Positions 10,145 through 36,260 are shown, numbered from the stretch's first letter. The stretch: 37,317 nt of DNA from a virus (IMGVR_UViG_2721755496_000005); one strand, 5' to 3'. Notes: generated by a model not told the origin, from the sequence alone. A program made the numbers and translations.

Positions 10145-10717
10145 TCAGGGAGATTCATTGCTCTTATTTGCCGGAAATTTTCTATAAATAGTAGAAACGC
10201 CTACATCAAAAATCAGTGCAATACGCTGTCTTGATTCTCCGGCCTCAAGTAAACGCCCAATCTGTGCCCACTGTTCGGTGGTCAACTTAGGACGGCGTCC
10301 ACCTACTCTGCCTTTGGCACGAGCTGCAGCCAGCCCTGCCCTGGTACGTTCAACTATCAGTTCGCGTTCCATTTCAGCCAGGGCACCCATAACATGAAAA
10401 AAGAAACGGCCCATTGGGGTACTGGTATCAATACTATCAGTCAGGCTTCGGAAATTCACGCCACGCTGGCGCAACTCTTCTATCAGCGTAACAAGATGCC
10501 GCATACTGCGCCCCAGTCTGTCCAGCTTCCAGACAACCAGAGTGTCTCCTGCCGATAGTGTCCTGAGCAGTTTTTTAAGCCCCGGTCTGTCGGACTTAGT
10601 GCCACTGATTTTATCCTCAAAAATCCGCTCACATCCCGCGCAGTTCAGTGCATTACGTTGCAAATCGGTGTTCTGGTCATTTGTTGACACGCGTACATAG
10701 CCAATAAGCATGAGCAT
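10145..10717 (-). CDS. Site-specific DNA invertase (Hin/Gin/Cin/Pin-type serine recombinase)
   Basis: GYVRVST-DQ catalytic N-terminus, LVVWKLDRLGRS and SLTDSIDTS-MGRFFFHVMGALAEMERELI motifs, C-terminal HTH; about 190 aa. Confidence 0.9.
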   Translation of the reverse strand: MLMLIGYVRVSTNDQNTDLQRNALNCAGCERIFEDKISGTKSDRPGLKKLLRTLSAGDTLVVWKLDRLGRSMRHLVTLIEELRQRGVNFRSLTDSIDTSTPMGRFFFHVMGALAEMERELIVERTRAGLAAARAKGRVGGRRPKLTTEQWAQIGRLLEAGESRQRIALIFDVGVSTIYRKFPANKSNESP

Positions 10718-10738
10718 CCCCCTGAATAAAAACCGGAG

Positions 10739-11122
10739 ATGATGCCAGTTAGCCGTTATCTCTGCATTTTCATAAACGTTGGTTTGGGAGAAGCCAGATA
10801 TGTCATTCAGCGAGGAGCTAATGCCAATGGTGCATGGATACGCTGGTCAGATGGTGCAATAGAAGTATTTGGAACCGGTGGATCTAATGATAATGGACTG
10901 GCTAAAGTTGTTTACCCAATTGCACTGCCTAAACTTTCACGTTTTATCAGTATCGCGGAAAGAATAAGAACGGATTACGAGAGCACACCTAATAATGTTC
11001 ACGTTTCAATGATCGTGGATGATCAGGTAACAAATACCGGCTTTTATGCCCGCTGCCAGATGTACGACGGCAGACCATCATCAAATGCTTTTTCCTGGAG
11101 GGTTTATTGTGCGCCTGTTTAA
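10739..11122 (+). CDS. Alternative tail-fibre C-terminal segment (Sv'-like), promoterless in this orientation
   Basis: ORF on the opposite strand to H, starting at the crossover site; both H and this ORF encode LGLGE across the shared core, so inversion would fuse it in frame to the constant part of H. Confidence 0.5.
   Translation: MMPVSRYLCIFINVGLGEARYVIQRGANANGAWIRWSDGAIEVFGTGGSNDNGLAKVVYPIALPKLSRFISIAERIRTDYESTPNNVHVSMIVDDQVTNTGFYARCQMYDGRPSSNAFSWRVYCAPV
10767..10792 (+). repeat. Invertase crossover site, invertase-proximal (hix/gix-like)
   Basis: TTTTCATAAACGTTGGTTTGGGAGAA matches the reverse complement of 12405..12430 at 22 of 26 positions, with the last 13 identical. Confidence 0.6.
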
Positions 11123-11306
11123 TCCAGTTACTTTGACTGAAGTAATCCCCGGTCTTCATGACGTGACCGGGGCTATTGAATTACCGGAGGACAATTGGTT
11201 TTTTACTATGACAGAAATTCCTCAGGGCATGGAGCTAACAATTAATGAGAAAGGCGAACCAATACTAATTGAGGTTAATCAGTCTCAGGGAATACAGGCC
11301 AAATAA
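11085..11306 (+). CDS. Short ORF in the position of an alternative tail-fibre assembly gene (U'-like); possibly truncated
   Basis: Follows the Sv'-like segment and converges on tfa; only about 66-73 aa against about 200 aa for a full Tfa; start uncertain (ATG 11085 or GTG 11109). Confidence 0.3.
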   Translation: MLFPGGFIVRLFNPVTLTEVIPGLHDVTGAIELPEDNWFFTMTEIPQGMELTINEKGEPILIEVNQSQGIQAK

Positions 11307-11883
11307 TATCAGGCGCGGTGCTGGTATCTGTTGCCGTCACCGCGTCAATGTAATCCAGCACCGTGTTAAGTCGGCTGGTTTCTGCCTGCGTCAGATTCCG
11401 TCCGGCCTGTAATTTCAGTTGAATCAGACTGATGGAAGCCATTGCAGTATCAATCAGCGACTGGCGTTGTGCTTCTGCTGCATCTACTGCGGCGCTATGC
11501 TGTGCCTCGGTATCCGTCACCCATTTCTCACCATCCCATTTATCGTATGGTGTTAACGGGGCGATAGTGGTTGTATTATCAGGGTAATCACCCGGAGCTG
11601 TGATTTCTTTTGATTCTCCTGTTTCGGTGCTAAAGACGATTTCACCGCGATGGTCTGGCACATATTCCCATGAGTTAAAATCTGCAGAACGGCAGATTGC
11701 ATAACCAGCCTTATGTGTGCCAGGAGCATCTAAACAGGAATATGCGGGGATACCGACACCCACAGCAAGATATTCAATTGATGCAGAAATATACTCCCGT
11801 GTCTCACTGTCATAGTTATAAACGGTAATCTCTCCTGCCTTTGTGGCAATAAATTTATTATTTAAGATAGCGTTATACATCAT
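11275..11883 (-). CDS. G: Tail fibre assembly protein (gpG / Tfa family)
   Basis: 202-aa ORF after H; C-terminal DTSTAPDIIWP motif resembles the conserved C-terminus of lambda Tfa-type chaperones. Confidence 0.82.
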   Translation of the reverse strand: MMYNAILNNKFIATKAGEITVYNYDSETREYISASIEYLAVGVGIPAYSCLDAPGTHKAGYAICRSADFNSWEYVPDHRGEIVFSTETGESKEITAPGDYPDNTTTIAPLTPYDKWDGEKWVTDTEAQHSAAVDAAEAQRQSLIDTAMASISLIQLKLQAGRNLTQAETSRLNTVLDYIDAVTATDTSTAPDIIWPVFPETD

Positions 11884-13466
11884 GCAGCCCTCACAATGTA
11901 ATTAAATGAAATATTACGTGGGCGTGTCTCTGCTGCACCGACAATACTGGTACTCAACCCCGTTGCCGTTCGTTTGTTATTTTTATTTCCTTCAATCAGA
12001 CAGTTGTAATCATCATTACCAATTAACGAATTGGTGGCATCAATACTGTCCGGGGACAAGGCATTAGTTGTGGAACTTAAAGTCAGCATCTCGTCTGAAC
12101 TTGGAAGATTTTTTAATGGTGTTTCATTGCGTGAAATACCCGCGTAAAAAAAGGACTCATGTCTGTGAGCTTCAAAAGAGTCATCCTGAAGACTTAACAA
12201 GGCTCGCCCCGCATCCACCCCGCGCCCATCATCCCATCCACGAATAAATTCACCGCGTAAATCAGGCAATTTATTTGTCGGGTAAGCCTTTGCCAGTTCC
12301 GGGTATTCTTCAGCAGAAAAAGCCGCACCATTGCATTTCAGCCAGCCTGTTGGCGGAGTGGCTGAAGGCCACGGAACAGGCACCCCAACAGGTAATGCTG
12401 AGCCTTCTCCCAAACCAAGGTATGTGAGAAGACCAGCTACATCCTTTCCACTCAAATTGGTAAGCGTATTGTCCAGCGGTTGTTTACCTGCCAGCGCATT
12501 CAGCATTGTCGTGGCAAAGTTCGGATCATTCCCCAGCGCCGCTGCCAGTTCGTTCAGTGTATCCAGTGCCGCAGGTGCAGAACCCACCATTGCCGCAATC
12601 GCCGATTTCACAAAAGCCGTAGTGGCAATCTGTGTATTGTTGACCGACTGCGCCGCCGTGGGGGCTGTTGGCGTTCCGGTGAGTGCCGGACTCGATAGCG
12701 GCGCTTTCAGTGCCAGCGCATTGTTAATGGTGGTACTGAATTTCGGATCATTGTTAATGGCTACGGCTATTTCTTTCAGCGTGTCCAGCGTGGCTGGCGC
12801 ACCATTAATAAGAGCCGTCAGTGCCGCCTGAACAAATGCGGTGGTCGCAACCTGCGTGGTATTATTCCCCGCCGCTGGCGTTGGCGCTTTGGGGGTTCCG
12901 GTAAACGTTGGACTTTCTTTGGGTGCATACTGTGAATGTGGGTCCGCTGCGGCAAGGTGTTTTGCCATTTGGTCATCCACATACACCTTCAGCTCCAGTG
13001 TCTTATCATCCACATACTTGCGAGTTGCCAGTACTACAGCAGGGTCGATTTTCAGGGTGATATTGTCCGTACTGCTGGTAATCAGCACCATGCGCACGGT
13101 CTGGGTGCGCCCGCTGCCTTCAGCCAGTTGCGGCTTATAGCTTTCCGGGCAGTTGCCCACGGCAATCAATGCCCCGGATTCATCATACAGGCCCACTTCA
13201 CGTATCCACCAACCGCCCTCGTTTTCAGGGATCACCTGTTCAGCAATAATCTGGCTGCTGTTCTGCGGGTCGATATAGAGCATATTCAGCGCAGCCCGGC
13301 GTTTCTCATTTACCAGTGCTGTCTGCTTTGCGTCCGGTGTTGGCAATGTTCCGCCGCCATCGCCGACCGCCATATGGGTAATTTTTAAAGGCACACCGAG
13401 CGCGGCGGCGCTGGCAAGTTTCGCCGCGCCAATATCCGTCAGCAGGGTATAAAATTTTGTGCTCAT
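11880..13466 (-). CDS. H: Tail fibre protein gpH (constant N-terminal part plus invertible C-terminal part)
   Basis: 528-aa ORF; N-terminus MSTKFYTLLTDIGAAKLA resembles P2 H; Gly/Ala/Thr-rich repeats; C-terminal ETRPRNISFNYIVRAA-type tip motif. Confidence 0.85.
   Translation of the reverse strand: MSTKFYTLLTDIGAAKLASAAALGVPLKITHMAVGDGGGTLPTPDAKQTALVNEKRRAALNMLYIDPQNSSQIIAEQVIPENEGGWWIREVGLYDESGALIAVGNCPESYKPQLAEGSGRTQTVRMVLITSSTDNITLKIDPAVVLATRKYVDDKTLELKVYVDDQMAKHLAAADPHSQYAPKESPTFTGTPKAPTPAAGNNTTQVATTAFVQAALTALINGAPATLDTLKEIAVAINNDPKFSTTINNALALKAPLSSPALTGTPTAPTAAQSVNNTQIATTAFVKSAIAAMVGSAPAALDTLNELAAALGNDPNFATTMLNALAGKQPLDNTLTNLSGKDVAGLLTYLGLGEGSALPVGVPVPWPSATPPTGWLKCNGAAFSAEEYPELAKAYPTNKLPDLRGEFIRGWDDGRGVDAGRALLSLQDDSFEAHRHESFFYAGISRNETPLKNLPSSDEMLTLSSTTNALSPDSIDATNSLIGNDDYNCLIEGNKNNKRTATGLSTSIVGAAETRPRNISFNYIVRAA
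12405..12430 (-). repeat. Invertase crossover site inside H (hix/gix-like)
   Basis: Minus strand TTCTCACATACCTTGGTTTGGGAGAA; inverted copy of 10767..10792; about 20 of 26 positions match the hixL sequence as recalled. Confidence 0.6.
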
Positions 13467-24737: not shown

Positions 24738-25799
24738 TTAATATTCAAAATTATTTTCTTCAATAGAGAACTCAATCCCTCGGGATAACTTATCAATATT
24801 CACATCAAATGCGATATCTGTTAATTCACCATCCTCGATTTCATACATAACTTCAATTTCAATATCGAAACTAATCTCTTGAACTTCAGTTCGTGTGGTT
24901 GTCTCCATTGGAATCATTACTTTATCTTCGCTATCCCAATACCCATTATTAAAGTCTGGACCAGAAACAGTAACTTCAAAATCTACAGAAACAGAGAAGG
25001 TCGCTAGACAATAATTATTGTCAATCTTAATTATTGATGGTTCAAAGTCATCAATATTGACGACTTCAAATGAATCCAATTCAGCGTCTTCCCAAGTTGA
25101 AACGTTATATCCATCGGCATCATTGAGTTGGGCAATTACGTCCGCTCTTATGTCTTCACGTTTGCTTTCGATAAACTGCATCAATTTATTACTTAATTCG
25201 TTTGTATGCGTATTGTATTCACCTAGAAACTTATCAAGTGAATCAATTTGATGAAGATTGTTTTTACCATCACAATAATTTTTTAAGTCACTATCCTCAG
25301 AAATGATATACACATCTTCATCATTAACAAATCGCTCTACCGCAGCTAAAGTGATTGCATCAGGAAACTCACTTTTTTTCTTATTTTGCCCAAATGGTGG
25401 TTCTTTGCCAAAGTATTTATCTAAAACCTCATTAAGATCTATCACTTCTATTGTAGCTAATTTGGCGTGACATCCTTTCAAAAAATCATCAAAAACTTTT
25501 TGTGCTGCTTCGTGAATTTCATGTTCGTTAAATTGCTGAAAAAAACCATGGAGCGGTCCATTATCAATACTATTCAAAAGCCTAGCTTTTCTTTGTACTG
25601 TGTTTATAGCCTGCAGAGCATCCTTTATTGATTCCTCTATTTTACCTTTTACTTCTCTCTCTACAACTGTAGTTGTAATTAAGACTAAATCACCTTTCGC
25701 ACATAATTCATGGAAAGCTTTAAATGCTACCCCCTCAAAATGAAGACCAGCCTTTACGTACGTTTGTGTGTCAATAAATACCTTATTTGTTTTAAGCAT
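24738..25799 (-). CDS. Cargo protein: putative PIN-like nuclease domain with a strongly acidic C-terminal half
   Basis: 353 aa in AT-rich DNA. The N-terminal half has acidic positions spaced like the PIN catalytic residues (D10, E47/E49, D147 in DAITLAAV, D169/D171 in YIISEDSD). The C-terminal half has repeated hydrophobic-acidic strand motifs such as FDIEIEV and FDVNID. Confidence 0.5.
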   Translation of the reverse strand: MLKTNKVFIDTQTYVKAGLHFEGVAFKAFHELCAKGDLVLITTTVVEREVKGKIEESIKDALQAINTVQRKARLLNSIDNGPLHGFFQQFNEHEIHEAAQKVFDDFLKGCHAKLATIEVIDLNEVLDKYFGKEPPFGQNKKKSEFPDAITLAAVERFVNDEDVYIISEDSDLKNYCDGKNNLHQIDSLDKFLGEYNTHTNELSNKLMQFIESKREDIRADVIAQLNDADGYNVSTWEDAELDSFEVVNIDDFEPSIIKIDNNYCLATFSVSVDFEVTVSGPDFNNGYWDSEDKVMIPMETTTRTEVQEISFDIEIEVMYEIEDGELTDIAFDVNIDKLSRGIEFSIEENNFEY

Positions 25800-25920
25800 A
25801 CTAATCCTAATAAGTTTTAAGATCCGCTACAATTGTTTATGTTTATTTTTTATCAATAATCATACGTAGTTAAGATTATCCATGTCGAAAAATTAAATCA
25901 ACTTCAATTTATCCTTAAGC

Positions 25921-25944
25921 GCGCGCTCGTATCCCCGCCACGCC
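25921..25944 (-). other. Candidate cos (cohesive end) site
   Basis: Minus strand GGCGTGGCGGGGATACGAGCGCGC; the first 13 nt equal the 186 cos sequence as recalled (GGCGTGGCGGGGAAAGCAT); sits in a GC-normal island between AT-rich cargo genes. Confidence 0.4.
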
Positions 25945-26266
25945 TGCCCGCTTTATGTAGTGGTTTTCATGCACCTGCATGTTCTACGTAAAAGCCCGCT
26001 AGTTCTGGCGAGCCTTAGCAAAAACGATCCTTAAACGATCATGCGATTTCATGCAGCATAGTCATGCACTGTCTAAGAGAAGTGAAAGTCCGTATCTGAA
26101 TGACCACTTGAAAAACGAAACATACAGACTTACAAAGATGAAGCTCTACTGTGAGCGAGGAACATACATAGTTGCTCTGTAATAGCCAAATTTTAAGCAG
26201 GAAATCTCTTTTTTATGACAAAACTATAAAGAAAAACAGACCGTTTCATCTCTCAATGAAACTATA

Positions 26267-27844
26267 CTACAATACTTTTCTCTCGATGGTATTTTTAATG
26301 GTCAACATATCTTTAGGAATACTTTTTTTCCCCTCTATACGTATGGTAAACACAAAAAGAATAACGGCTGATCTCACAATTTTCATGAGTTGTAAGAGCT
26401 GTTTCTCAAACTTTTCTTTCTCAATAAACCTCACCTTATCAAAAAATCCATAAGAATTATATAAATCAACTAACATGTCTTTCTCGTGAATAACTAACAG
26501 TTTATGTTCTAAATCATTCCTCCATTCTTTAAAAAAAGCAAGCTCACCATTTTTATCATTCAAATCCATAGCAATACTAAACAACCCCAGCAATCCTTTA
26601 TTATTTATTTTGTTTATTTTAAGCTTTCTTTTTTCATCACTAATCCGCCAGAAGTTATGAAAGTATATATGTCCTCTATCTGGTTTTAAATCAAATAATT
26701 GACACAGAGCAACTGCTATTTTATCCAAGATACCAAAGCAAGCTCTAAATGCAACCCTTAACTTCTCAACATTTTCATACAATATTTCTCCATTATACAA
26801 TTCAGAATAACATACCTCCGAATCCTCATCAAAAAACTCACTATCAACCTTATATTCAAAAAACATTTTTCGTGCTAAGGAATACTCAGCTTTAAGTCTA
26901 TTTAACACCATTTCCATTGGCACTATAAAATCACCAAACACACCTTCCTCGGTGGTCGCAATAGTTATATTATCTTTAGATGACGCATAACAATTGCAAT
27001 ATAGCGAATGATCAGACAACATTAGATTATTATCTATACAAAACCTCTGGTAGTTTGATAAAGTATCATACTCCTCCTGCGTGAGCCTTTCATCTGTACT
27101 TATATCCTCTATGCCATATACACATGATTCACTCAATATACTTTCGTTGTACTTTATTTTTCTTTGAAGAGCAACCTTCCATGAAGGAAAACATTTCCCT
27201 GACTTTATTGCACACTCATAACCTCGAATAACTTCTTTAATCATTTTATATGTATATGTTGTAGATAATTCATTAAGCAATTCTAATGCCTCAGATCTGT
27301 TTACCCACGCCTGAGGAATTGAGTTATCAATAGATATTGCTTGTTCATAATAATCCATTGATTCAGATATACGATATTGTTTTTTTAATACATTAGCTAG
27401 ATTAACTATTAAATCAGGGGGCACCCATCCATCTTCTTGTGAAAGTTTAAACGCTTTCCAGTAATTATTTTTTACATCATTCAGCTTAATGAAACTATCA
27501 ATATCTGCATTGTCATTAGGATTAAAATCAAGAACTGCGCTCATTCCATTTGCCAAGTTATAGTAATATAAAGATTCTTTCATTATAGTCAGAAATTCAT
27601 TTTTATTGTTTATAAAGATATTTAAGCCTTCCTCCGCTATATTTTTTACATTACTAAAATTTCCGATATCAATAAGATTTCCGGCCAAATTAGATAATAT
27701 AATTATTCTATTTTCTTTGATTGTATTTATCTCATCGATACCGTTAAGAATATCCTTTACATTTTTATAGGCAGAATCAAATGAACCTGCATTAATAAGA
27801 TCATCTACGAACCCCATTTTTGAAACAACATAGTTGATATCCAT
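26267..27844 (-). CDS. Cargo protein: TPR-like N-terminal region plus C-terminal HEPN-like domain (R-x4-H); candidate abortive-infection RNase
   Basis: 525 aa in AT-rich DNA; start has an AAGAGG RBS. Contains WRNDLEH (R-x4-H) in the C-terminal quarter and a TPR-like segment YYEQAISIDNSIPQAWVNRSEAL. Confidence 0.55.
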   Translation of the reverse strand: MDINYVVSKMGFVDDLINAGSFDSAYKNVKDILNGIDEINTIKENRIIILSNLAGNLIDIGNFSNVKNIAEEGLNIFINNKNEFLTIMKESLYYYNLANGMSAVLDFNPNDNADIDSFIKLNDVKNNYWKAFKLSQEDGWVPPDLIVNLANVLKKQYRISESMDYYEQAISIDNSIPQAWVNRSEALELLNELSTTYTYKMIKEVIRGYECAIKSGKCFPSWKVALQRKIKYNESILSESCVYGIEDISTDERLTQEEYDTLSNYQRFCIDNNLMLSDHSLYCNCYASSKDNITIATTEEGVFGDFIVPMEMVLNRLKAEYSLARKMFFEYKVDSEFFDEDSEVCYSELYNGEILYENVEKLRVAFRACFGILDKIAVALCQLFDLKPDRGHIYFHNFWRISDEKRKLKINKINNKGLLGLFSIAMDLNDKNGELAFFKEWRNDLEHKLLVIHEKDMLVDLYNSYGFFDKVRFIEKEKFEKQLLQLMKIVRSAVILFVFTIRIEGKKSIPKDMLTIKNTIERKVL

Positions 27845-28564: not shown

Positions 28565-28605
28565 CTTTCCTCCTATGACACCACAAGAAATACTGTATGT
28601 ATAAC

Positions 28606-28717: not shown

Positions 28718-29074
28718 TTAATACAGGTTCCGCCACTTATCATCTTCCCGCAAACACTGGTTCCGATAGAAGATACGCAAGCCTGCTCCTGACGGAATAC
28801 TGCCGCCGCGAAGGAGTAAATCGACCTCTTTCTCGCTACCATCAAATCCTCTGGACTTCAGCTCATAGACGAGCTGCAGTCGCTGATGGTCTGTAATTCG
28901 CTGTTTGTAGTCTTTACGCCGTTTCGGTTTCACCAGGCGTAACCTTGCAGCCAGTTCCCGGCGCTCTTTTTTGTTCATACTGTGCAGGTAATCGTGCAAC
29001 TCCTTGTCATCCATGCTGGTAATGTCCGTTCTGGGGTCCCCATCAGCTGATTTATCTTTCTCCTGTTGGTTCAA
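28718..29074 (-). CDS. Hypothetical phage protein
   Basis: 118-aa ORF overlapping the gpA stop; basic and charged; no family recognised. Confidence 0.5.
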
Positions 29075-31158
29075 ATTTTCAGCAAGGGGACAGTTATTGC
29101 CACGAGTCCAAGGGGACAGTTATTGCCACGAGTCCAAGGGGCGCAAGCGCCCTGGTCGGCTGCCGCCTCCTGAACATCAACGGCCTTACGAACCATTTTC
29201 CACTTCACGGCATGAGTGCAGATCTTGCCCTCTGCAATAGGTGACCAGATGCCATAAATACGAATGCCGTGATCGCCATAGGCGGTCGGCTCTTCGTTGA
29301 TTTCATAAGCGGTTCTGATGAGGTGATATTTGCGGGGAACCAGTACGCCGCCCTGCTTCATGATGTAGGTGGCAAAACAACCAGCATCAGCAGCAGCCAG
29401 GATGGCATCAAGGCGTGGGTTATCCAGTACCGGCGCACCTGCTTTTTTGTCCCCCTGTTGCCTTGCCGCCTGACCAGCCAGCAATCGCAGTTCACGGTAA
29501 GCCTGACGCCCCGGAATGCCAAAGAAGCGGAATTGCTGAACACGATGCAGAGACGCCCAGGCATTAACGTATTCAGCATTATCACGCAGGGATTTCCCCG
29601 TTTCCTTGCTGATCTCGCCAGCCAGACCACGCCCGTCAATGTTCTTACTGATGTATTTCGCGATGTAGCTTGTTGGCGTTCCTTTGCGCGGGTTAATCAA
29701 CTCAGACTTAAAGCGCGGCCCAGTGTTATTGCCCAGCTCCTCGCGGTCTTCACGGATGGCAAACTTACGCAGTAATGCAGTGATGGCACGGCGGTCTTTT
29801 TTGCGCATGAAACACAACAGGTGCCAGTGAACTGTGCCGTCATGATGCGGCTCAGCCACCCGCACGCCATACCAGCGCAACCCGGCTTTGTGCATCGCCT
29901 TACGAAATGCAGCAAACATGCCGACCAGATAATCGCTGCTTTGTCTTACCGTCGCGTTTGTCCAGGTCGGGTTTGGTCTGCCGTTATTGAGCGTGGAATG
30001 GAAACGTGACGGACAGGTGATGGTGTAGAAAACGGCGCAGTCACCGCGCATTTCCGCGATAAGCTCCAGACCTTTAACACAGGCCATCATCTCATTGCGG
30101 CGATGCGCCGGGTTGCTGCTGCTGGCGTTTACCACATCCTCCATGTCCAGCGTGTCGCCGTCTTCGTTCACCAGTTCATGAGAACGGAAAAACTCCAGCG
30201 ACTTACGGCGCTGCTCACGTTTATGCATCACGGCTTCATAGCTGACATAGGGAGATGCTTTTTTGCTGACCAGGCAGACAGCACGCAACTGCTCTTCCCG
30301 CCATTCGCAACGCATCCTCCATAATTTCCGATACCACCAATCGGCGCACAACATACGCGCCAGCGAACCCGGAATGAGTTCATAGGGCACGGGTTTACGG
30401 CGGTTTCTTTTCCGACGGAGTTGCTCAAACGCAGGAGGGATTACATCCAGACGCAGGGTTTCCGCTGCCACCTTTTCCCATGTCTTGCGGATTTCTTCTG
30501 GCTTAACGTCATCGGTGGCATACAAATCACCACAAGCTGCATCAAGGCACATGCTCATATGCGCGGCAACAAGGGTAGACAGGCGCTTCACCTGATCCTG
30601 ACTCATTTCAGGCAGGATCAGCAGGCCGTCCAGCCCTTCATGGCTTGCCATAAAGCGAAAAGAAGTGGATAGCTGACTCTCGCGTACATGCTCCAGTCGT
30701 TCCAGACATGGCTTAATCGTCTCACGCAAATAGCGGGAATAAGCCTTTGGCCTGCCCAGGCTGCTGAAGTATTCAATACGTTGCATCAGCGGCTTGCTGA
30801 TATGGGAAGGCTGGGCGTTGACGTCCGCCAGAATGACCATATCCGGATTAAAACGCTGCTGCTCATGCGCCAGCTTTGCCCGACTAATGAGCTTATCCTG
30901 CTCGATTTCGCGCTGGACAGGATCACGGGATTCATTAAAGAAATAACGCTCCCAGACCTGATCACTCAGCGCCTCACGGCGCAGCTGTTCCTGCTCGTTA
31001 TCGGCAGCGTACAGAGTGATCAGGTTTGAAAGCGCAGAAACCGGCGCAACTTCCGCCGGGTCCAGATAAGGGTTAATGGCCTTTTTCGGGCTGCTCCATG
31101 AGAATGCTGCTGCGACCTCGTTAAAGCCGCTGCAGTTGTTCATATCAGCATGGCTCAT
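29071..31158 (-). CDS. A: Replication initiation endonuclease gpA (rolling-circle initiator)
   Basis: 695-aa ORF with the VHWHLL and YIAKYISKN motifs recalled as characteristic of P2/186 gpA-type initiators; size close to 186 A. Confidence 0.88.
29085..29136. repeat. Perfect 26-bp tandem direct repeat (2 copies plus 5-nt partial third) within the 3' end of gene A
   Basis: aggggacagttattgccacgagtcca at 29085..29110 and again at 29111..29136, then agggg. Confidence 0.9.
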
Positions 31159-33813: not shown

Positions 33814-33908
33814 GATGCAACATCTCCTATTGGCTTGTGGTGAGCCTGTAGTAATCGTGACAAGTACCCAAACGGGGACAAAATTGATACTAGGATCGCA
33901 AAAGAGAT
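33814..33908. promoter_or_regulatory. Immunity switch region between divergent cI and apl
   Basis: 95-bp intergenic region between divergent repressor and apl genes; promoters and operators not delimited. Confidence 0.45.
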
Positions 33909-34505
33909 ATGTCAACATCAAAGTACCCAAATGAGATCAAAATAAATCCCAATAAAGGTGGTAAGGCTGCGATTGAGCGATTAGTCGAAGCTTATGGCTT
34001 TACGACACGACAGGCTTTAGCTGATCACTTGGAAGTATCAAAAAGCACTCTGGCGAACAGGTATTTGCGGGATACGTTTCCTGCAGACTGGATAATCCAA
34101 TGTGCTCTTGAAACAGGAACCTCACTGAAATGGTTAACCACCGGGCAAGGCCTTAAGCAAAGCTCGCTGACAGCAGCTACAGAAGAGCTTGCCAAGTTTC
34201 GCCTTACCGCAGGCAAAATGATTGAAGATGGTTCATATGTCTTCGATTCATCATTTCTTCCTGCAAATCTTTCATCACCAATTGTTATTCAGGATGGGCT
34301 CGTCACATACATTTGTGATCAAAAATTTTCTGAAGTACTTGATGGGCACTGGTTAATCAACATCGACGGAACCTATTCCATTCGAAAAATCACAAAGCTT
34401 CCAAAAGGTATGATTAAAATTACAAGTACAGAGAATAGCTTTGAATGTGCATTTTCTGATATTGAAGTAGTTGCTTGTATAAGAAGTACAATAGTTTCAA
34501 ATTAA
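33909..34505 (+). CDS. cI: Immunity repressor, 186 CI-like
   Basis: 198 aa; the pattern EAYGF...LA-H...S-LANRY...CALETG-SLKWLTTGQG resembles the 186 CI N-terminal domain as recalled. Confidence 0.7.
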   Translation: MSTSKYPNEIKINPNKGGKAAIERLVEAYGFTTRQALADHLEVSKSTLANRYLRDTFPADWIIQCALETGTSLKWLTTGQGLKQSSLTAATEELAKFRLTAGKMIEDGSYVFDSSFLPANLSSPIVIQDGLVTYICDQKFSEVLDGHWLINIDGTYSIRKITKLPKGMIKITSTENSFECAFSDIEVVACIRSTIVSN

Positions 34506-34525
34506 TATAGTAAAAGGATTTAAAA

Positions 34526-36202
34526 ATGAATTCATTTTCCATCGTTATATTCTTATTAGCATTTCTCGCCCCCATTCTAGCTGTAATATTATTTAAGCAA
34601 AGCAAAAAACATAAAGCGGCTATAGATACCTTGACAGCTAACAACATAGCCCTTTCCAACCAACTGAAAGAAAATCAAGAAGAATTAGCACAGACTGTAC
34701 GAGATCTATCAGAGCTTGAAGGACGAGCTGCACCATTATGGCAATACGTAGAATTGCACAGCGCAGTGATGGAAGCAGAGAATAAGATAAAAAATGCAGA
34801 CTCAATAGCCAGGCAAAAAATAGAAGAAGCCCAAATAAAGGCTGCTAAGACAGTAAACGAAGCAAATTATCAAGCTCAGATAAAAATAAGCAACGCTAAT
34901 AGCGAAGCTATAGCAATTACTAAAGACGCTCGCGATGCACGCCTGAAAGCTAAAGAACGTCTTGATAATGCCAATAGTAAAGCAAATGAGCTGATCTCAA
35001 ATGCTAATGACAATGCAGTGAAAATTATTTCCGATGCAGAAGAAAGAGCAAAAGAGATTGCTGGTTCAGCATATGAAGCTAAAGAGTTTGCAGAAAAATA
35101 TGAAGCAGTTGCCAAATCAATGAAAAATAAAATTGAAGGTTATGGTGATGAATGGATCATCCCTAACCGTAGCGTTCTCGATGAATTGGCAGAAAATTAT
35201 GAGTTTACAGATGCAGGCAAGGAATTACAAAAAGCCAGGGAGTTAACAAAATCATTAATAAAAACTAATAAAGCTGCTTCGTGTGATTATGTTGAACAAA
35301 ACAGGCGTAATACTGCTATCAACTTTGTTTTAGATGCCTTCAATGGAAGAGTTGACAGTATTTTATCAAAAGTCAAACACAACAATTTTGGAAAACTTTC
35401 CCAAGAGATAAAAGATGCGTTTCAACTTGTAAATTACAATGGTTCTGCCTTTAGGTCCGCAAAAATAAGTGACATCTATCTTCAAGCTCGACTCAACGAG
35501 CTAAAATGGGGTGTTGCAGTTAATGAAATTATGCTCGAAGAAAAAGAAGAGCAAAGAAGGATTAAAGAACAACTTCGTGAAGAGGAAAGAGCTCGTAGGG
35601 AGTATGAAAAAGCGATAAAAGAAGCTGAAAAAGAAGAGAAAGCTATTCAGCAAGCTATAAATAAAGCAACAAAAGAGCTTATGCTTGCAAATGAAGAACA
35701 ACGCTTAGCTTTAGAGCAAAAAATAGCTGAACTACAGTTAAAATATGAAGAAGCTGAAGCTAAAAACCAACGAGCTATTTCTATGGCTCAACAAACTAGA
35801 TCAGGCCACGTTTATATAATTAGTAATATTGGCTCATTTGGCGAAGATGTATATAAAATTGGAATGACACGCCGCCTTGAACCACTTGATCGTGTTCGTG
35901 AACTCGGTGATGCTAGTGTTCCTTTTTCGTTCGATGTTCATGCGATGATTTATAGTGATGATGCACCATCATTAGAAAATCATCTGCATAAAGTCTTCAA
36001 CGAAAAACAGGTCAATAAAATTAACTCACGAAAAGAGTTTTTCAACGTAAATATTAAAGAAATTAAGTCTGTTATTGAAGATATGAACATCAACGCACAA
36101 TGGACAATGTTTGCGGAAGCGAAAGAATATAGAGAGTCACTGGCGATTGAGCAAGAGCGCAAAGCAGCAACTTCCGCCAACGATGAACTGCATGTTGCTT
36201 AG
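34526..36202 (+). CDS. Cargo protein: N-terminal transmembrane helix, long coiled coil, C-terminal GIY-YIG-like (T5orf172/MUG113-type) domain
   Basis: 558 aa in AT-rich DNA, 21 bp after cI with AAAGGA RBS; hydrophobic N-terminus, about 380 aa of heptad-like Lys/Glu/Ala-rich sequence, then GHVYIISN...YKIGMTRR...R-x3-E-L...N. Confidence 0.6.
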   Translation: MNSFSIVIFLLAFLAPILAVILFKQSKKHKAAIDTLTANNIALSNQLKENQEELAQTVRDLSELEGRAAPLWQYVELHSAVMEAENKIKNADSIARQKIEEAQIKAAKTVNEANYQAQIKISNANSEAIAITKDARDARLKAKERLDNANSKANELISNANDNAVKIISDAEERAKEIAGSAYEAKEFAEKYEAVAKSMKNKIEGYGDEWIIPNRSVLDELAENYEFTDAGKELQKARELTKSLIKTNKAASCDYVEQNRRNTAINFVLDAFNGRVDSILSKVKHNNFGKLSQEIKDAFQLVNYNGSAFRSAKISDIYLQARLNELKWGVAVNEIMLEEKEEQRRIKEQLREEERARREYEKAIKEAEKEEKAIQQAINKATKELMLANEEQRLALEQKIAELQLKYEEAEAKNQRAISMAQQTRSGHVYIISNIGSFGEDVYKIGMTRRLEPLDRVRELGDASVPFSFDVHAMIYSDDAPSLENHLHKVFNEKQVNKINSRKEFFNVNIKEIKSVIEDMNINAQWTMFAEAKEYRESLAIEQERKAATSANDELHVA

Positions 36203-36260
36203 CAATGTATGTTTCATAGTAATCACACATTGATTACTGGTTGTATATACAGTTAAATTT

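What the first reader, a model, noticed from the sequence alone, without database searches (positions are those of the whole stretch)
29085..29136. Perfect 26-bp tandem duplication inside the 3' end of replication gene A
Two exact copies and a 5-nt partial third of aggggacagttattgccacgagtcca lie 12-65 nt upstream of the gpA stop. The unit is not a multiple of 3, so gain or loss of one copy would change the gpA C-terminus and the coupling to the overlapping downstream gene. The P2 origin lies within A, so the repeat could also be relevant to ori structure or arise from slipped-strand mispairing.
Basis: seen in the sequence. Interest (0 to 1): 0.4.

Follow-up and report, generated by a model that had tools for sequence, protein, structure and literature searches.

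The report
Duplicated replication-origin nick site breaks gpA
The 26-bp repeat is a recent duplication of the exact spot where this P2-like prophage's replication protein cuts its own gene to start DNA copying; it breaks that gene, and the same kind of cut-site-anchored duplication has arisen many separate times in related phages, which points to the cutting enzyme itself as the cause.

Summary
The repeat is real: perfect period-26 identity over 29083-29141, on the minus-strand gene for gpA. It is not an ordinary coding repeat. The unit is the conserved nick-site core of the P2-family origin, which lies inside gene A.

Relatives carry one copy and an 804-aa gpA. Here the extra 26 bp shifts the frame, so gpA ends after 683 native residues. 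The "overlapping downstream gene" is the severed 121-aa gpA tail. Every other prophage gene looks intact.

The two-copy allele is rare: 7 of about 1,260 E. coli genomes, and none among isolated phages. It sits on at least 10 different haplotypes, each closest to a single-copy twin, and one contig has three copies. So it is recurrent.

Other duplications of 6, 21, 25 and 29 bp, in three other origin sequence types, all start at the position annotated as the P2 nick. The reciprocal 26-bp deletion was never found.

Best explanation: gpA nicks, the 3' end is extended a few bases, and the extended end is rejoined to the gpA-linked 5' end. Ordinary slippage between the flanking 7-nt repeats is the main rival. 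Known parts, apparently undescribed mutational signature; moderate interest.

The parts
29083..29141 (-). Whole periodic tract. On the gene strand it reads CCCCTTG | GACTCGTGGCAATAACTGTCCCCTTG | GACTCGTGGCAATAACTGTCCCCTTG.
29109..29134 (-). Copy 1, next to the hairpin. It holds the nick-site core GACTCG-TGGCAATAACTG-TCCCCTTG. The predicted nick 1 lies between 29135 and 29134 (gene strand TTG^GAC).
   Evidence: Homology to the annotated nick of P2 (29892) and of 186 (28576). Coordinates.
29083..29108 (-). Copy 2, the extra 26 bp. It has the same core, preceded by CCCCTTG but without the upstream hairpin. The potential nick 2 lies between 29109 and 29108.
   Evidence: This copy is absent from single-copy relatives.
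29135..29141 (-). Heptamer CCCCTTG immediately 5' of the nick. It recurs at the end of each unit (29109-29115 and 29083-29089). It can be read either as 7-nt microhomology or as a mimic of the natural 3'-OH end.
29139..29152 (-). Inverted repeat GGGCGC-TT-GCGCCC just upstream of the nick. It is not duplicated. Equivalent hairpins with different sequences occur in P2, 186 and the E92-type origin.
   Evidence: the hairpin is present in the centroid fold of all five origins. The fold energies alone are not significant.
29071..31158 (-). Truncated gpA ORF of 695 aa. Residues 1-683 are native and residues 684-695 ([12 protein letters not shown]) are out-of-frame read-through of copy 2.
   Evidence: (Pfam Phage_GPA, E = 4.9e-128, residues 188-510).
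28718..29074 (-). Severed C-terminal tail of gpA. It covers 118 of the 121 lost codons and appears as a separate ORF whose TTG overlaps the new TGA stop. It is not an independent gene.
   Evidence: In relatives it is fused to gpA in one 804-aa CDS. tblastn splits gpA in two at the repeat. pN/pS of the tail is 0.17. No Pfam or NCBIfam family matches it.
29821..29847 (-). HUH metal-binding motif (HHDGTVHWH, residues 438-446), intact.
29644..29667 (-). Two-tyrosine motif YIAKYISK (residues 498-505), intact. It aligns with the same motif in P2 and 186 gpA.
   Evidence: PMC3986222 states that two tyrosines in motif C form the P2 A active site.

Best explanation
The repeat is a derived, recent 26-bp tandem duplication of the nick-site core of the P2-family replication origin, which lies inside gene A. 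It is most likely made by the initiator itself.

Steps that are shown:
- The unit is homologous to the annotated P2 and 186 nick region.
- Relatives have one copy and an 804-aa gpA.
- The duplication shifts the frame, truncating gpA after residue 683 and stranding a 121-aa tail that is under purifying selection.
- The rest of the prophage is intact.
- The same duplication arose independently at least 10 times.
- Unrelated duplications of 6, 21, 25 and 29 bp start at exactly the same phosphodiester bond.

Steps that are inferred:
- A polymerase extends the 3'-OH by a few to about 30 nt, displacing the protein-blocked 5' end. This could happen either in an aborted initiation or as overshoot at termination.
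- The extended 3'-OH then attacks the phosphotyrosine bond. The short new stretch is sealed in front of the old one, giving a tandem duplication anchored at the nick.
- In this lineage 26 nt is favoured because the extended end then reads CCCCTTG-3'OH, identical to the natural 3' end at the nick.

Likely consequence, also inferred: a prophage that is replication-defective or badly attenuated. It can be inherited only vertically, unless one copy is lost again.
For: - Location. The P2 rep_origin (29892) and the 186 origin (28576) sit in GCGCCTCG|GAGTCCTGTCAATAACTG and its 186 equivalent. The window has GCGCCCCTTG|GACTCGTGGCAATAACTG at the same codons, APWTRGNNC. PMC8537503 states that gpA nicks the origin inside its own ORF and binds the 5' end.
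- Derived state. Phage and E. coli relatives align 26 bp shorter. Eighty IMG/VR loci are single-copy. PGAP marks the two-copy genes as 'frameshifted'.
- Rarity. Seven of about 1,260 gpA-bearing E. coli genomes carry the junction. None of 50,697 isolated phage records does.
- Recurrence. For each of 10 two-copy haplotypes and for the three-copy L021, the nearest single-copy sequence is closer than any other duplicated one, at +-150 nt, +-400 nt and over 1.1 kb. Examples: L003 vs L256, 0 of 1,099 differences; L006 vs L281, 1 of 1,099.
- Shared left boundary. The same boundary is seen in the 21-bp duplication of RM10809-3, the 25-bp duplication of L191/L222 and the 29-bp plus 6-bp x3 duplications of L217. 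It is also seen in the 6-bp doublings in W-type, P2-type and 186-type origins in E. coli and in several more lineages in IMG/VR.
- Controls. Probe grids covering start offsets -5..+5 and -6..+6 found no duplication starting elsewhere.
- Asymmetry. The reciprocal 26-bp deletion junction is absent from E. coli genomes and from IMG/VR.
- Tail constraint. pN/pS is 0.17.
- Prophage integrity. All other prophage proteins are full length.
- Precedent. In pT181 the leading strand runs 10-12 nt past the nick before strand transfer (PMC5703833).
Against: - The 26-bp event is flanked by a 7-nt direct repeat, so classical slippage alone could produce it, and its boundary is ambiguous over 8 positions.
- The exact P2 nick position comes from a GenBank annotation. 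The primary paper could not be read. The P2 and 186 annotations differ by one base.
- For P2-type and 186-type origins, only nick-anchored junctions were probed, so there was no off-nick control.
- One non-anchored 12-bp tandem duplication without microhomology lies about 45 nt downstream in KL53. So lack of microhomology is not diagnostic.
- The imperfect 33-bp duplication in L024 does not fit cleanly.
- Which strand is nicked was not verified.
- No experiment here shows that gpA makes these products, or that the truncated gpA is inactive.
Confidence: 0.6

Rival explanations
1. Ordinary slipped-strand mispairing during chromosomal or phage replication, between the two CCCCTTG heptamers 26 nt apart and with no role for gpA. 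The coincidence with the nick would then be incidental, or due to polymerase pausing near the origin hairpin.
For: - The single-copy ancestor has CCCCTTG on both sides of a 19-nt segment. Only alleles that keep the second heptamer show the 26-bp duplication.
- The three-copy allele L021 is what slippage within an existing repeat would give.
- A non-anchored 12-bp duplication in KL53 shows that slippage-type events do occur nearby.
Against: - The 21-, 25- and 29-bp events and the 6-bp doublings in P2-type and 186-type origins have no microhomology at their boundaries, yet share the same left boundary; the W-type 6-bp doubling has 1 nt (G), so its boundary is ambiguous by one position.
- That boundary keeps its place relative to the conserved core, while its distance from the hairpin varies between 4 and 6 nt.
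- The reciprocal deletion expected from the same heptamers was not found in 5,426 E. coli genomes or in IMG/VR, against at least 10 independent duplications.
Confidence: 0.28
2. A functional arrangement rather than damage. Either it is a reversible copy-number switch that turns prophage replication off and on, or it is a split gpA in which the 683-residue catalytic part and a separately translated tail (restart at the TTG that overlaps the TGA) work together.
For: - Copy numbers of 1, 2 and 3 exist.
- The HUH and tyrosine motifs are intact, and the tail ORF stays open and abuts the stop codon as TTGA.
- Tail length after the origin varies widely among gpA lineages. It is about 27 aa in the L191 type, and the origin lies outside any long ORF in L217. 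So catalysis may not need the tail.
- Tandem rolling-circle origins are known to resolve by initiation at one and termination at the other (author's knowledge of f1, pT181 and geminiviruses, not checked here).
Against: - The allele is rare (about 0.5%) and is always young relative to a single-copy twin. It is absent from isolated phages. This is the pattern of a recurrent deleterious mutation.
- No Shine-Dalgarno sequence precedes the TTG (sequence).
- The tail is under purifying selection as part of one ORF.
- PGAP treats the gene as a pseudogene.
Confidence: 0.08
3. An assembly or sequencing artefact in this particular genome.
For: Raw reads for the window could not be examined.
Against: The identical junction occurs in seven independently finished E. 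coli genomes, four IMG/VR contigs and three metagenome contigs, on different haplotypes.
Confidence: 0.02

Closest known systems
Bacteriophage P2 / 186 gene A protein and its internal origin (HUH rolling-circle initiator; nick mapped by Liu & Haggard-Ljungquist 1994, annotated at P2 nt 29892)
   Same: - Pfam Phage_GPA domain, HUH and YxxKY motifs.
- Origin inside the gene at the codons ..P(W/R)(T/S)..NNC.
- Conserved core TG(G/T)CAATAACTG six nt 3' of the nick.
- A hairpin just 5' of the nick.

   Different: - The core is present twice in tandem, and the gene is frameshifted at the origin.
- The +1..+6 hexamer is GACTCG rather than GAGTCC or GAGTTC.
- The protein family branch is the 804-aa type found in Klebsiella phage 4LV2017 and in many E. 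coli prophages.
pT181-type rolling-circle termination overshoot (leading strand runs 10-12 nt past the nick; Rep keeps the oligonucleotide)
   Same: The origin lies inside the rep gene, and synthesis passes the nick before strand transfer (PMC5703833). This supplies the short extended 3' end that the model needs.
   Different: In pT181 the overshoot is removed on the inactivated Rep protein. Here it would be sealed into the genome as a duplication. P2 gpA is an unrelated HUH two-tyrosine enzyme.
Illegitimate recombination with one end point at the nick of rolling-circle replicons (M13, pC194), and resolution of tandem origins (f1, geminivirus replicational release). From the author's knowledge, not checked here.
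   Same: The initiator nick acts as a fixed end point of rearrangements. Two tandem nick sites allow initiation at one and termination at the other.
   Different: Those cases are mostly laboratory deletions or constructs. Here the events are natural, recurrent short tandem duplications found in prophages.
Microhomology-mediated tandem duplication by replication slippage
   Same: A 7-nt direct repeat flanks the duplicated segment, and there are 2-copy and 3-copy alleles.
   Different: Other duplications at the site lack microhomology but share the boundary. The reciprocal deletion was not seen.

Membership tests
P2-family gpA replication initiator (Pfam PF05840, HUH superfamily) | Significant match to the Phage_GPA profile | tested here: met
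   E = 4.9e-128, 427 bits, residues 188-510, full profile 1-321.
P2-family gpA replication initiator (Pfam PF05840, HUH superfamily) | HUH metal-binding motif and a pair of active-site tyrosines (YxxKY) | tested here: met
   HHDGTVHWH at residues 438-446 and YIAKYISK at residues 498-505, aligned with P2 and 186. The motif role is taken from PMC3986222.
P2-family gpA replication initiator (Pfam PF05840, HUH superfamily) | Complete reading frame comparable to functional relatives | tested here: not met
   The ORF is 695 aa against 804 aa in relatives, and 121 C-terminal residues are displaced into another frame. The gene is a frameshifted allele of a family member.
P2-type origin of replication | Conserved nick-site core inside gene A at the position homologous to the P2 nick | tested here: met
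   Alignment with the annotated origins of P2 and 186. The core TGGCAATAACTG is present, twice.
P2-type origin of replication | Cleavage by gpA at that bond, on that strand | not testable with these tools
   This needs biochemistry. It is supported only indirectly, by duplication boundaries that coincide with the annotated nick.
Iterons / initiator-binding direct repeats | Repeat copies conserved in number and spacing among related replicons | tested here: not met
   Relatives have one copy. The two-copy state is rare and polyphyletic.
Programmed ribosomal frameshift site | Two-frame architecture conserved in relatives, with a slippery site | tested here: not met
   Relatives encode a single uninterrupted 804-aa ORF. 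The two-frame layout exists only in duplication alleles.
Phase-variable (contingency) repeat locus | Copy-number polymorphism among close relatives | tested here: met
   One, two and three copies were found on near-identical backgrounds.
Phase-variable (contingency) repeat locus | High-frequency reversible switching within one population, with a selectable phenotype | not testable with these tools
   No read data are available. The low allele frequency (about 0.5%) argues for mutation-selection balance rather than a maintained switch.

The most novel reading that the evidence does not exclude
The P2-family initiator writes short tandem duplications at its own nick site. It can also erase them, by initiating at the distal copy and terminating at the proximal one. 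On this reading the 26-bp allele is a self-inflicted and self-reversible off-state of prophage replication. The natural spectrum of such scars (6, 21, 25, 26 and 29 bp, all ending in S-T-Y-S) would then record the enzyme's nick position and its preference for particular 3' ends at single-nucleotide resolution.
Probability: 0.12. Interest if true: 0.8.

Novelty: new variant of a known kind. Interest (0 to 1): 0.55.

Why it matters
- Annotation. The two ORFs at 28718-31158 are one broken gpA gene, not a replication gene plus a coupled small gene. PGAP already flags the same allele as frameshifted in other genomes.
- Prophage biology. An otherwise intact P2/186-like prophage is probably made replication-dead by a single 26-bp event, and that event recurs. 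This would be a repeatable route to stranded, vertically inherited prophages.
- Mechanism. If the anchoring at the nick holds up, natural genomes carry a mutational signature of an HUH rolling-circle initiator. Nick sites of uncharacterised P2-like phages could then be read from comparative data alone, and a simple experiment is suggested: gpA-dependent duplication spectra at the origin. I found no description of this signature in the searchable literature, but that library lacks most of the older P2 papers.

Tried and rejected
- The scan of genome contigs with CAATAACTGT..CAATAACTGT was too loose.
- The primary paper on the P2 nick (PMC332061) and the Christie & Calendar review (PMC4836473) are not held. 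A text search for the P2 origin sequence found nothing relevant. The nick position therefore rests on GenBank annotations and on PMC8537503.
- The E. coli GF66.2 hit in the first census is spurious: it is a single copy with a SNP.
- The idea that the truncated protein equals the naturally short 186 gpA (694 aa) was rejected. 186 is shorter at the N-terminus and does have a tail after the origin, with the shared ERREL..RLR..KP..RRK motif.
- A single-sequence AlphaFold model of the severed tail had pLDDT 56, so no fold search was run. Pfam and NCBIfam give nothing for the tail.
- The exact 695-aa protein is not in the 15-billion-protein collection.
- Origin hairpin folding energies are not significantly better than shuffles (z = -0.7 to -1.7). 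The hairpin is supported only by its recurrence with different sequences.
- L024 (33-bp imperfect in-frame duplication) could not be resolved without single-copy relatives. It is left as a possible exception.

Full report
**Observation.** Tandem Repeats Finder reports a single strong array at 29083-29141: period 26, 2.3 copies, 100% identity, score 118. Nothing else in the window scores above 46. Direct extension confirms perfect period-26 identity from 29083 to 29141. About 5e-14 such runs would be expected by chance in 37 kb.

**Gene context.** The repeat lies on the minus strand, near the end of a 695-aa ORF at 29071-31158. This ORF matches Pfam Phage_GPA at E = 4.9e-128. Its HUH motif (residues 438-446) and YIAKYISK motif (residues 498-505) are intact.
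- Removing one copy in silico fuses this ORF in frame to the next ORF (28718-29074). The result is an 804-aa protein.
- That 804-aa protein is collinear with gpA of Klebsiella phage 4LV2017 and of E. coli strains SCU-485 and H2.
- So the present stop codon is a product of the duplication. Residues 684-695 are out-of-frame read-through, and the "overlapping downstream gene" is the severed 121-aa tail of gpA.
- The tail shares motifs with the tails of P2 and 186 gpA. Among 80 distinct single-copy alleles its pN/pS is 0.17, against 0.02 for the region upstream of the origin. It is therefore a constrained coding region.

**What the unit is.** GenBank annotates the P2 nick at nt 29892 and the 186 origin at 28576. 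Both fall in the codons A-P-R/S-S-P/S-V-N-N-C:
- P2: GCGCCTC[G]GAGTCCTGTCAATAACTG
- 186: CCCTCTCG[G]AGTTCTGTCAATAACTG
- Window, same codons (APWTRGNNC): GCGCCCCTTG|GACTCGTGGCAATAACTGTCCCCTTG

The 26-bp unit is therefore the origin core, starting at the predicted nick. Nick 1 lies between 29135 and 29134, and nick 2 between 29109 and 29108. A short inverted repeat (29139-29152) precedes the nick and is not duplicated. P2, 186 and an E92-type origin have hairpins of different sequence at the same place. PMC8537503 confirms that gpA nicks the origin within its own ORF and binds the 5' end.

**State in relatives.**

| Collection | Result |
|---|---|
| Isolated phages (INPHARED) | 49 full-length matches, all top-listed ones 26 bp shorter; no two-copy junction in 50,697 records |
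| Complete E. coli genomes | about 1,260 of 5,426 carry this gpA region; 7 carry the two-copy junction |
| IMG/VR | more than 600 stretches encode this gpA; the best 80 are all single-copy; 4 contigs have two copies and 1 has three |
| Metagenome contigs | 3 contigs have two copies |

The seven E. coli genomes are S88, MS7163, N53, Res13-PEB20, Res13-PEB21, EC261 and 19KM1863. PGAP annotates the four loci examined there as "replication endonuclease, frameshifted".

**The rest of the prophage.** The window is an E. coli chromosomal segment (grxA-ybjM-ybjL) followed by a P2/186-like prophage. It is collinear with the prophage of strain H2. Every H2 prophage protein has an uninterrupted full-length match in the window, apart from segments replaced by unrelated sequence (the tail-fibre end and its assembly gene, the immunity region). 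gpA is the only gene broken within collinear sequence: it splits at the repeat. The duplication is the only visible lesion.

**Recurrence.** I aligned a 1.1-kb region from 98 sequences. For every one of 10 distinct two-copy haplotypes, and for the three-copy one, the nearest single-copy sequence is closer than the nearest other duplicated sequence. This holds at +-150 nt, at +-400 nt and over the whole region.
- Res13-PEB20 differs from the single-copy L256 at 0 of 1,099 sites.
- 19KM1863 differs from L281 at 1 of 1,099 sites.
- The window differs from strain H2 at 2 of 300 sites near the repeat.
- Only S88 and a gut-metagenome contig share one haplotype.

The flanks already differ within 50 nt of the repeat, so transfer by recombination is unlikely. 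The simplest reading is at least 10 independent, recent gains on a single-copy background, each short-lived.

**Other duplications at the same bond.** In the W lineage, RM10809-3 reads CCCCTTG|GACTCG..TGTCC|GACTCG..TGTCC|CCTTG.

| Length | Where | Origin type | Effect on reading frame | Microhomology |
|---|---|---|---|---|
| 21 bp | E. coli RM10809-3 | W (this lineage) | In frame; annotated as an intact 811-aa gpA | None |
| 25 bp | L191 and L222; gpA about 35% identical | Own type (hexamer GAGTTC) | Truncates gpA (TTG|GAGTTC..) | None |
| 6 bp x3 plus 29 bp x2 | Metagenome contig L217 | Own type (hexamer GAGTTC) | Origin is not inside a long ORF here | None; all start at TTG|GAGTTC |
| 6 bp | 8 E. 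coli genomes, including the unrelated 943-aa E92 gene | W | In frame | 1 nt (G) |
| 6 bp | 3 E. coli genomes (CTCG|GAGTCC|GAGTCC) | P2 | In frame | None |
| 6 bp | 1 E. coli genome (CTCG|GAGTTC|GAGTTC) | 186 | In frame | None |
| 6 bp, several forms | IMG/VR contigs, including one with three GACTCG | Several further lineages | Not examined | Varies |

Thirteen hits of the IMG/VR scan are not duplications. They belong to a sublineage in which the hexamer before the nick is GACTCG by descent.

**Controls.** Two concatenated-probe censuses of the 5,426 E. coli genomes tested start offsets other than the nick.
- Census 1 covered offsets -5..+5 with lengths 18-33. Census 2 covered offsets -6..+6 with lengths 3-10.
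- Neither found a duplication starting anywhere else. The only other hits were the phase-equivalent probes of the 26-bp and 6-bp events.
- The events found without regard to boundary (21, 25 and 29 bp) had 12, 16 and 20 possible start positions, and each starts at the same bond. That bond is the one following P2 nt 29892.
- The boundary keeps a fixed distance from the conserved core, while its distance from the hairpin varies (4, 5 or 6 nt).
- The reciprocal 26-bp deletion, which slippage between the two heptamers should also produce, is absent from the E. coli genomes and from IMG/VR.

**Mechanism proposed (inferred).**
1. gpA nicks at TTG^GAC and remains linked to the 5' phosphate. That end is therefore protected from flap removal.
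2. The 3'-OH is extended by a few to about 30 nt. This could happen during an aborted initiation, or as overshoot when a round of replication ends. In pT181 the leading strand is known to run 10-12 nt past the nick before strand transfer (PMC5703833).
3. The extended end then attacks the phosphotyrosine bond. This seals a second copy of the first n nucleotides in front of the original.
4. After 26 nt the new end reads CCCCTTG-3'OH, identical to the natural acceptor end. That would explain why this length recurs in lineages that keep the second heptamer.

One post hoc observation fits this. All duplicated units end in S-T-Y-S (CTCG, CTTG, GTCC or GTTC), like positions -4 to -1 of the natural nick (and notebook). 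The pattern was seen after the fact and needs an independent test.

**Consequences (inferred).** The catalytic part of gpA is intact, but a conserved tail is lost and 12 aberrant residues are added. The allele is rare, always young, and absent from isolated phages. This fits a recurrent deleterious mutation that leaves a prophage able to persist only vertically, as in the S88/MS7163/N53 group. The absence from isolated phages is weak evidence, because few such phages carry this gene. Two tandem nick cores could also allow precise loss of one copy, by slippage or by initiation at copy 2 and termination at copy 1. That is speculation.

**Rivals.**
- Plain slippage at the 7-nt repeats is sufficient for the 26-bp event on its own, and remains a serious alternative (about 0.28). 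A non-anchored 12-bp duplication in KL53 shows that such events happen nearby.
- A functional switch or a split gene is unlikely (about 0.08).
- An artefact is very unlikely, given the identical junction in many independent assemblies (about 0.02).

**Limits.**
- The nick position comes from database annotation, not from the primary paper, and the P2 and 186 annotations differ by one base.
- The nicked strand was not verified.
- P2-type and 186-type origins were probed only at the nick.
- L024 (33 bp, imperfect) is unresolved.
- No functional data exist for the truncated protein.

**Verdict.** The feature is a frameshifting duplication of the origin nick site in a known gene of a known phage family. 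That much is already flagged by PGAP as a frameshift. The recurrent, nick-anchored pattern of such duplications across P2-like origins appears to be undescribed and is directly testable. Interest 0.55.

Noticed in passing
L010 (E. coli RM10809-3), L229/L230 (KL53, E92), L312/L313 (strains 0-4, G47-1), L191/L222, L217, L315, L326-L328, L336, L338, L342, L345: Tandem duplications of 6, 21, 25 and 29 bp start at exactly the predicted nick. They occur in at least five different origin sequence types. Two cases have three copies of the hexamer (L217, L315).
   Followed up: yes
All duplicated units listed above: The 3' ends of the duplicated units are CTCG, CTTG, GTCC or GTTC (S-T-Y-S). This resembles positions -4 to -1 of the natural nick. 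The pattern was noticed after the fact and could reflect the acceptor-end preference of gpA.
   Followed up: partly
L316, L318-L320, L322, L329, L330, L332, L334, L337, L340, L343, L344: In one P2-like sublineage the nick sits in a near-palindrome, GACTC-G^GAGTC. Its hexamer before the nick (GACTCG) equals the hexamer after the nick in the window's lineage.
   Followed up: no
L229 (E. coli KL53), about 45 nt 3' of the origin core: A separate in-frame 12-bp tandem duplication, CAAGGGAAAGAC x2 (QGKDQGKD), in the gpA tail. It is not anchored at the nick and has no microhomology.
   Followed up: no
L024 (IMGVR_UViG_2531839591_000017): An imperfect 33-bp in-frame duplication of the origin core (SSVNNCTEGAW / SSVNNCTEGG) in a gpA 37% identical to the window's. 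The canonical CTTGG context precedes only the second copy, and the first copy lies between the arms GCACCC and GGGTGC. How it arose is unclear.
   Followed up: partly
L217 (metagenome contig Ga0316190_10064820), around position 544: A P2-type origin core with an upstream hairpin (GCCGTT..AACGGC) that lies outside any long ORF. It may be an origin used in trans, for example by a satellite or plasmid.
   Followed up: no
window 24741-27844: Low-GC cargo between the portal gene and the DinI-like gene: a PIN_12 protein (24741-25799) and a 525-aa TPR/LA2681-HEPN protein (26267-27844). This slot is variable: relatives carry retron, TIR, DarT/macro, STAS or DUF4062 genes there.
   Followed up: partly
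window 33828-36247: The immunity region differs from strain H2: CI is only 54% identical. A 558-aa DUF4041/T5orf172 (MUG113) protein at 34526-36202 replaces H2's KAP NTPase between CI and integrase.
   Followed up: partly
window 10145-12404: A serine recombinase (Resolvase plus HTH_7, 10145-10717) lies next to a non-homologous tail-fibre C-terminus and assembly gene (11275-11883). This looks like a Gin/Cin-type invertible host-range segment.
   Followed up: no
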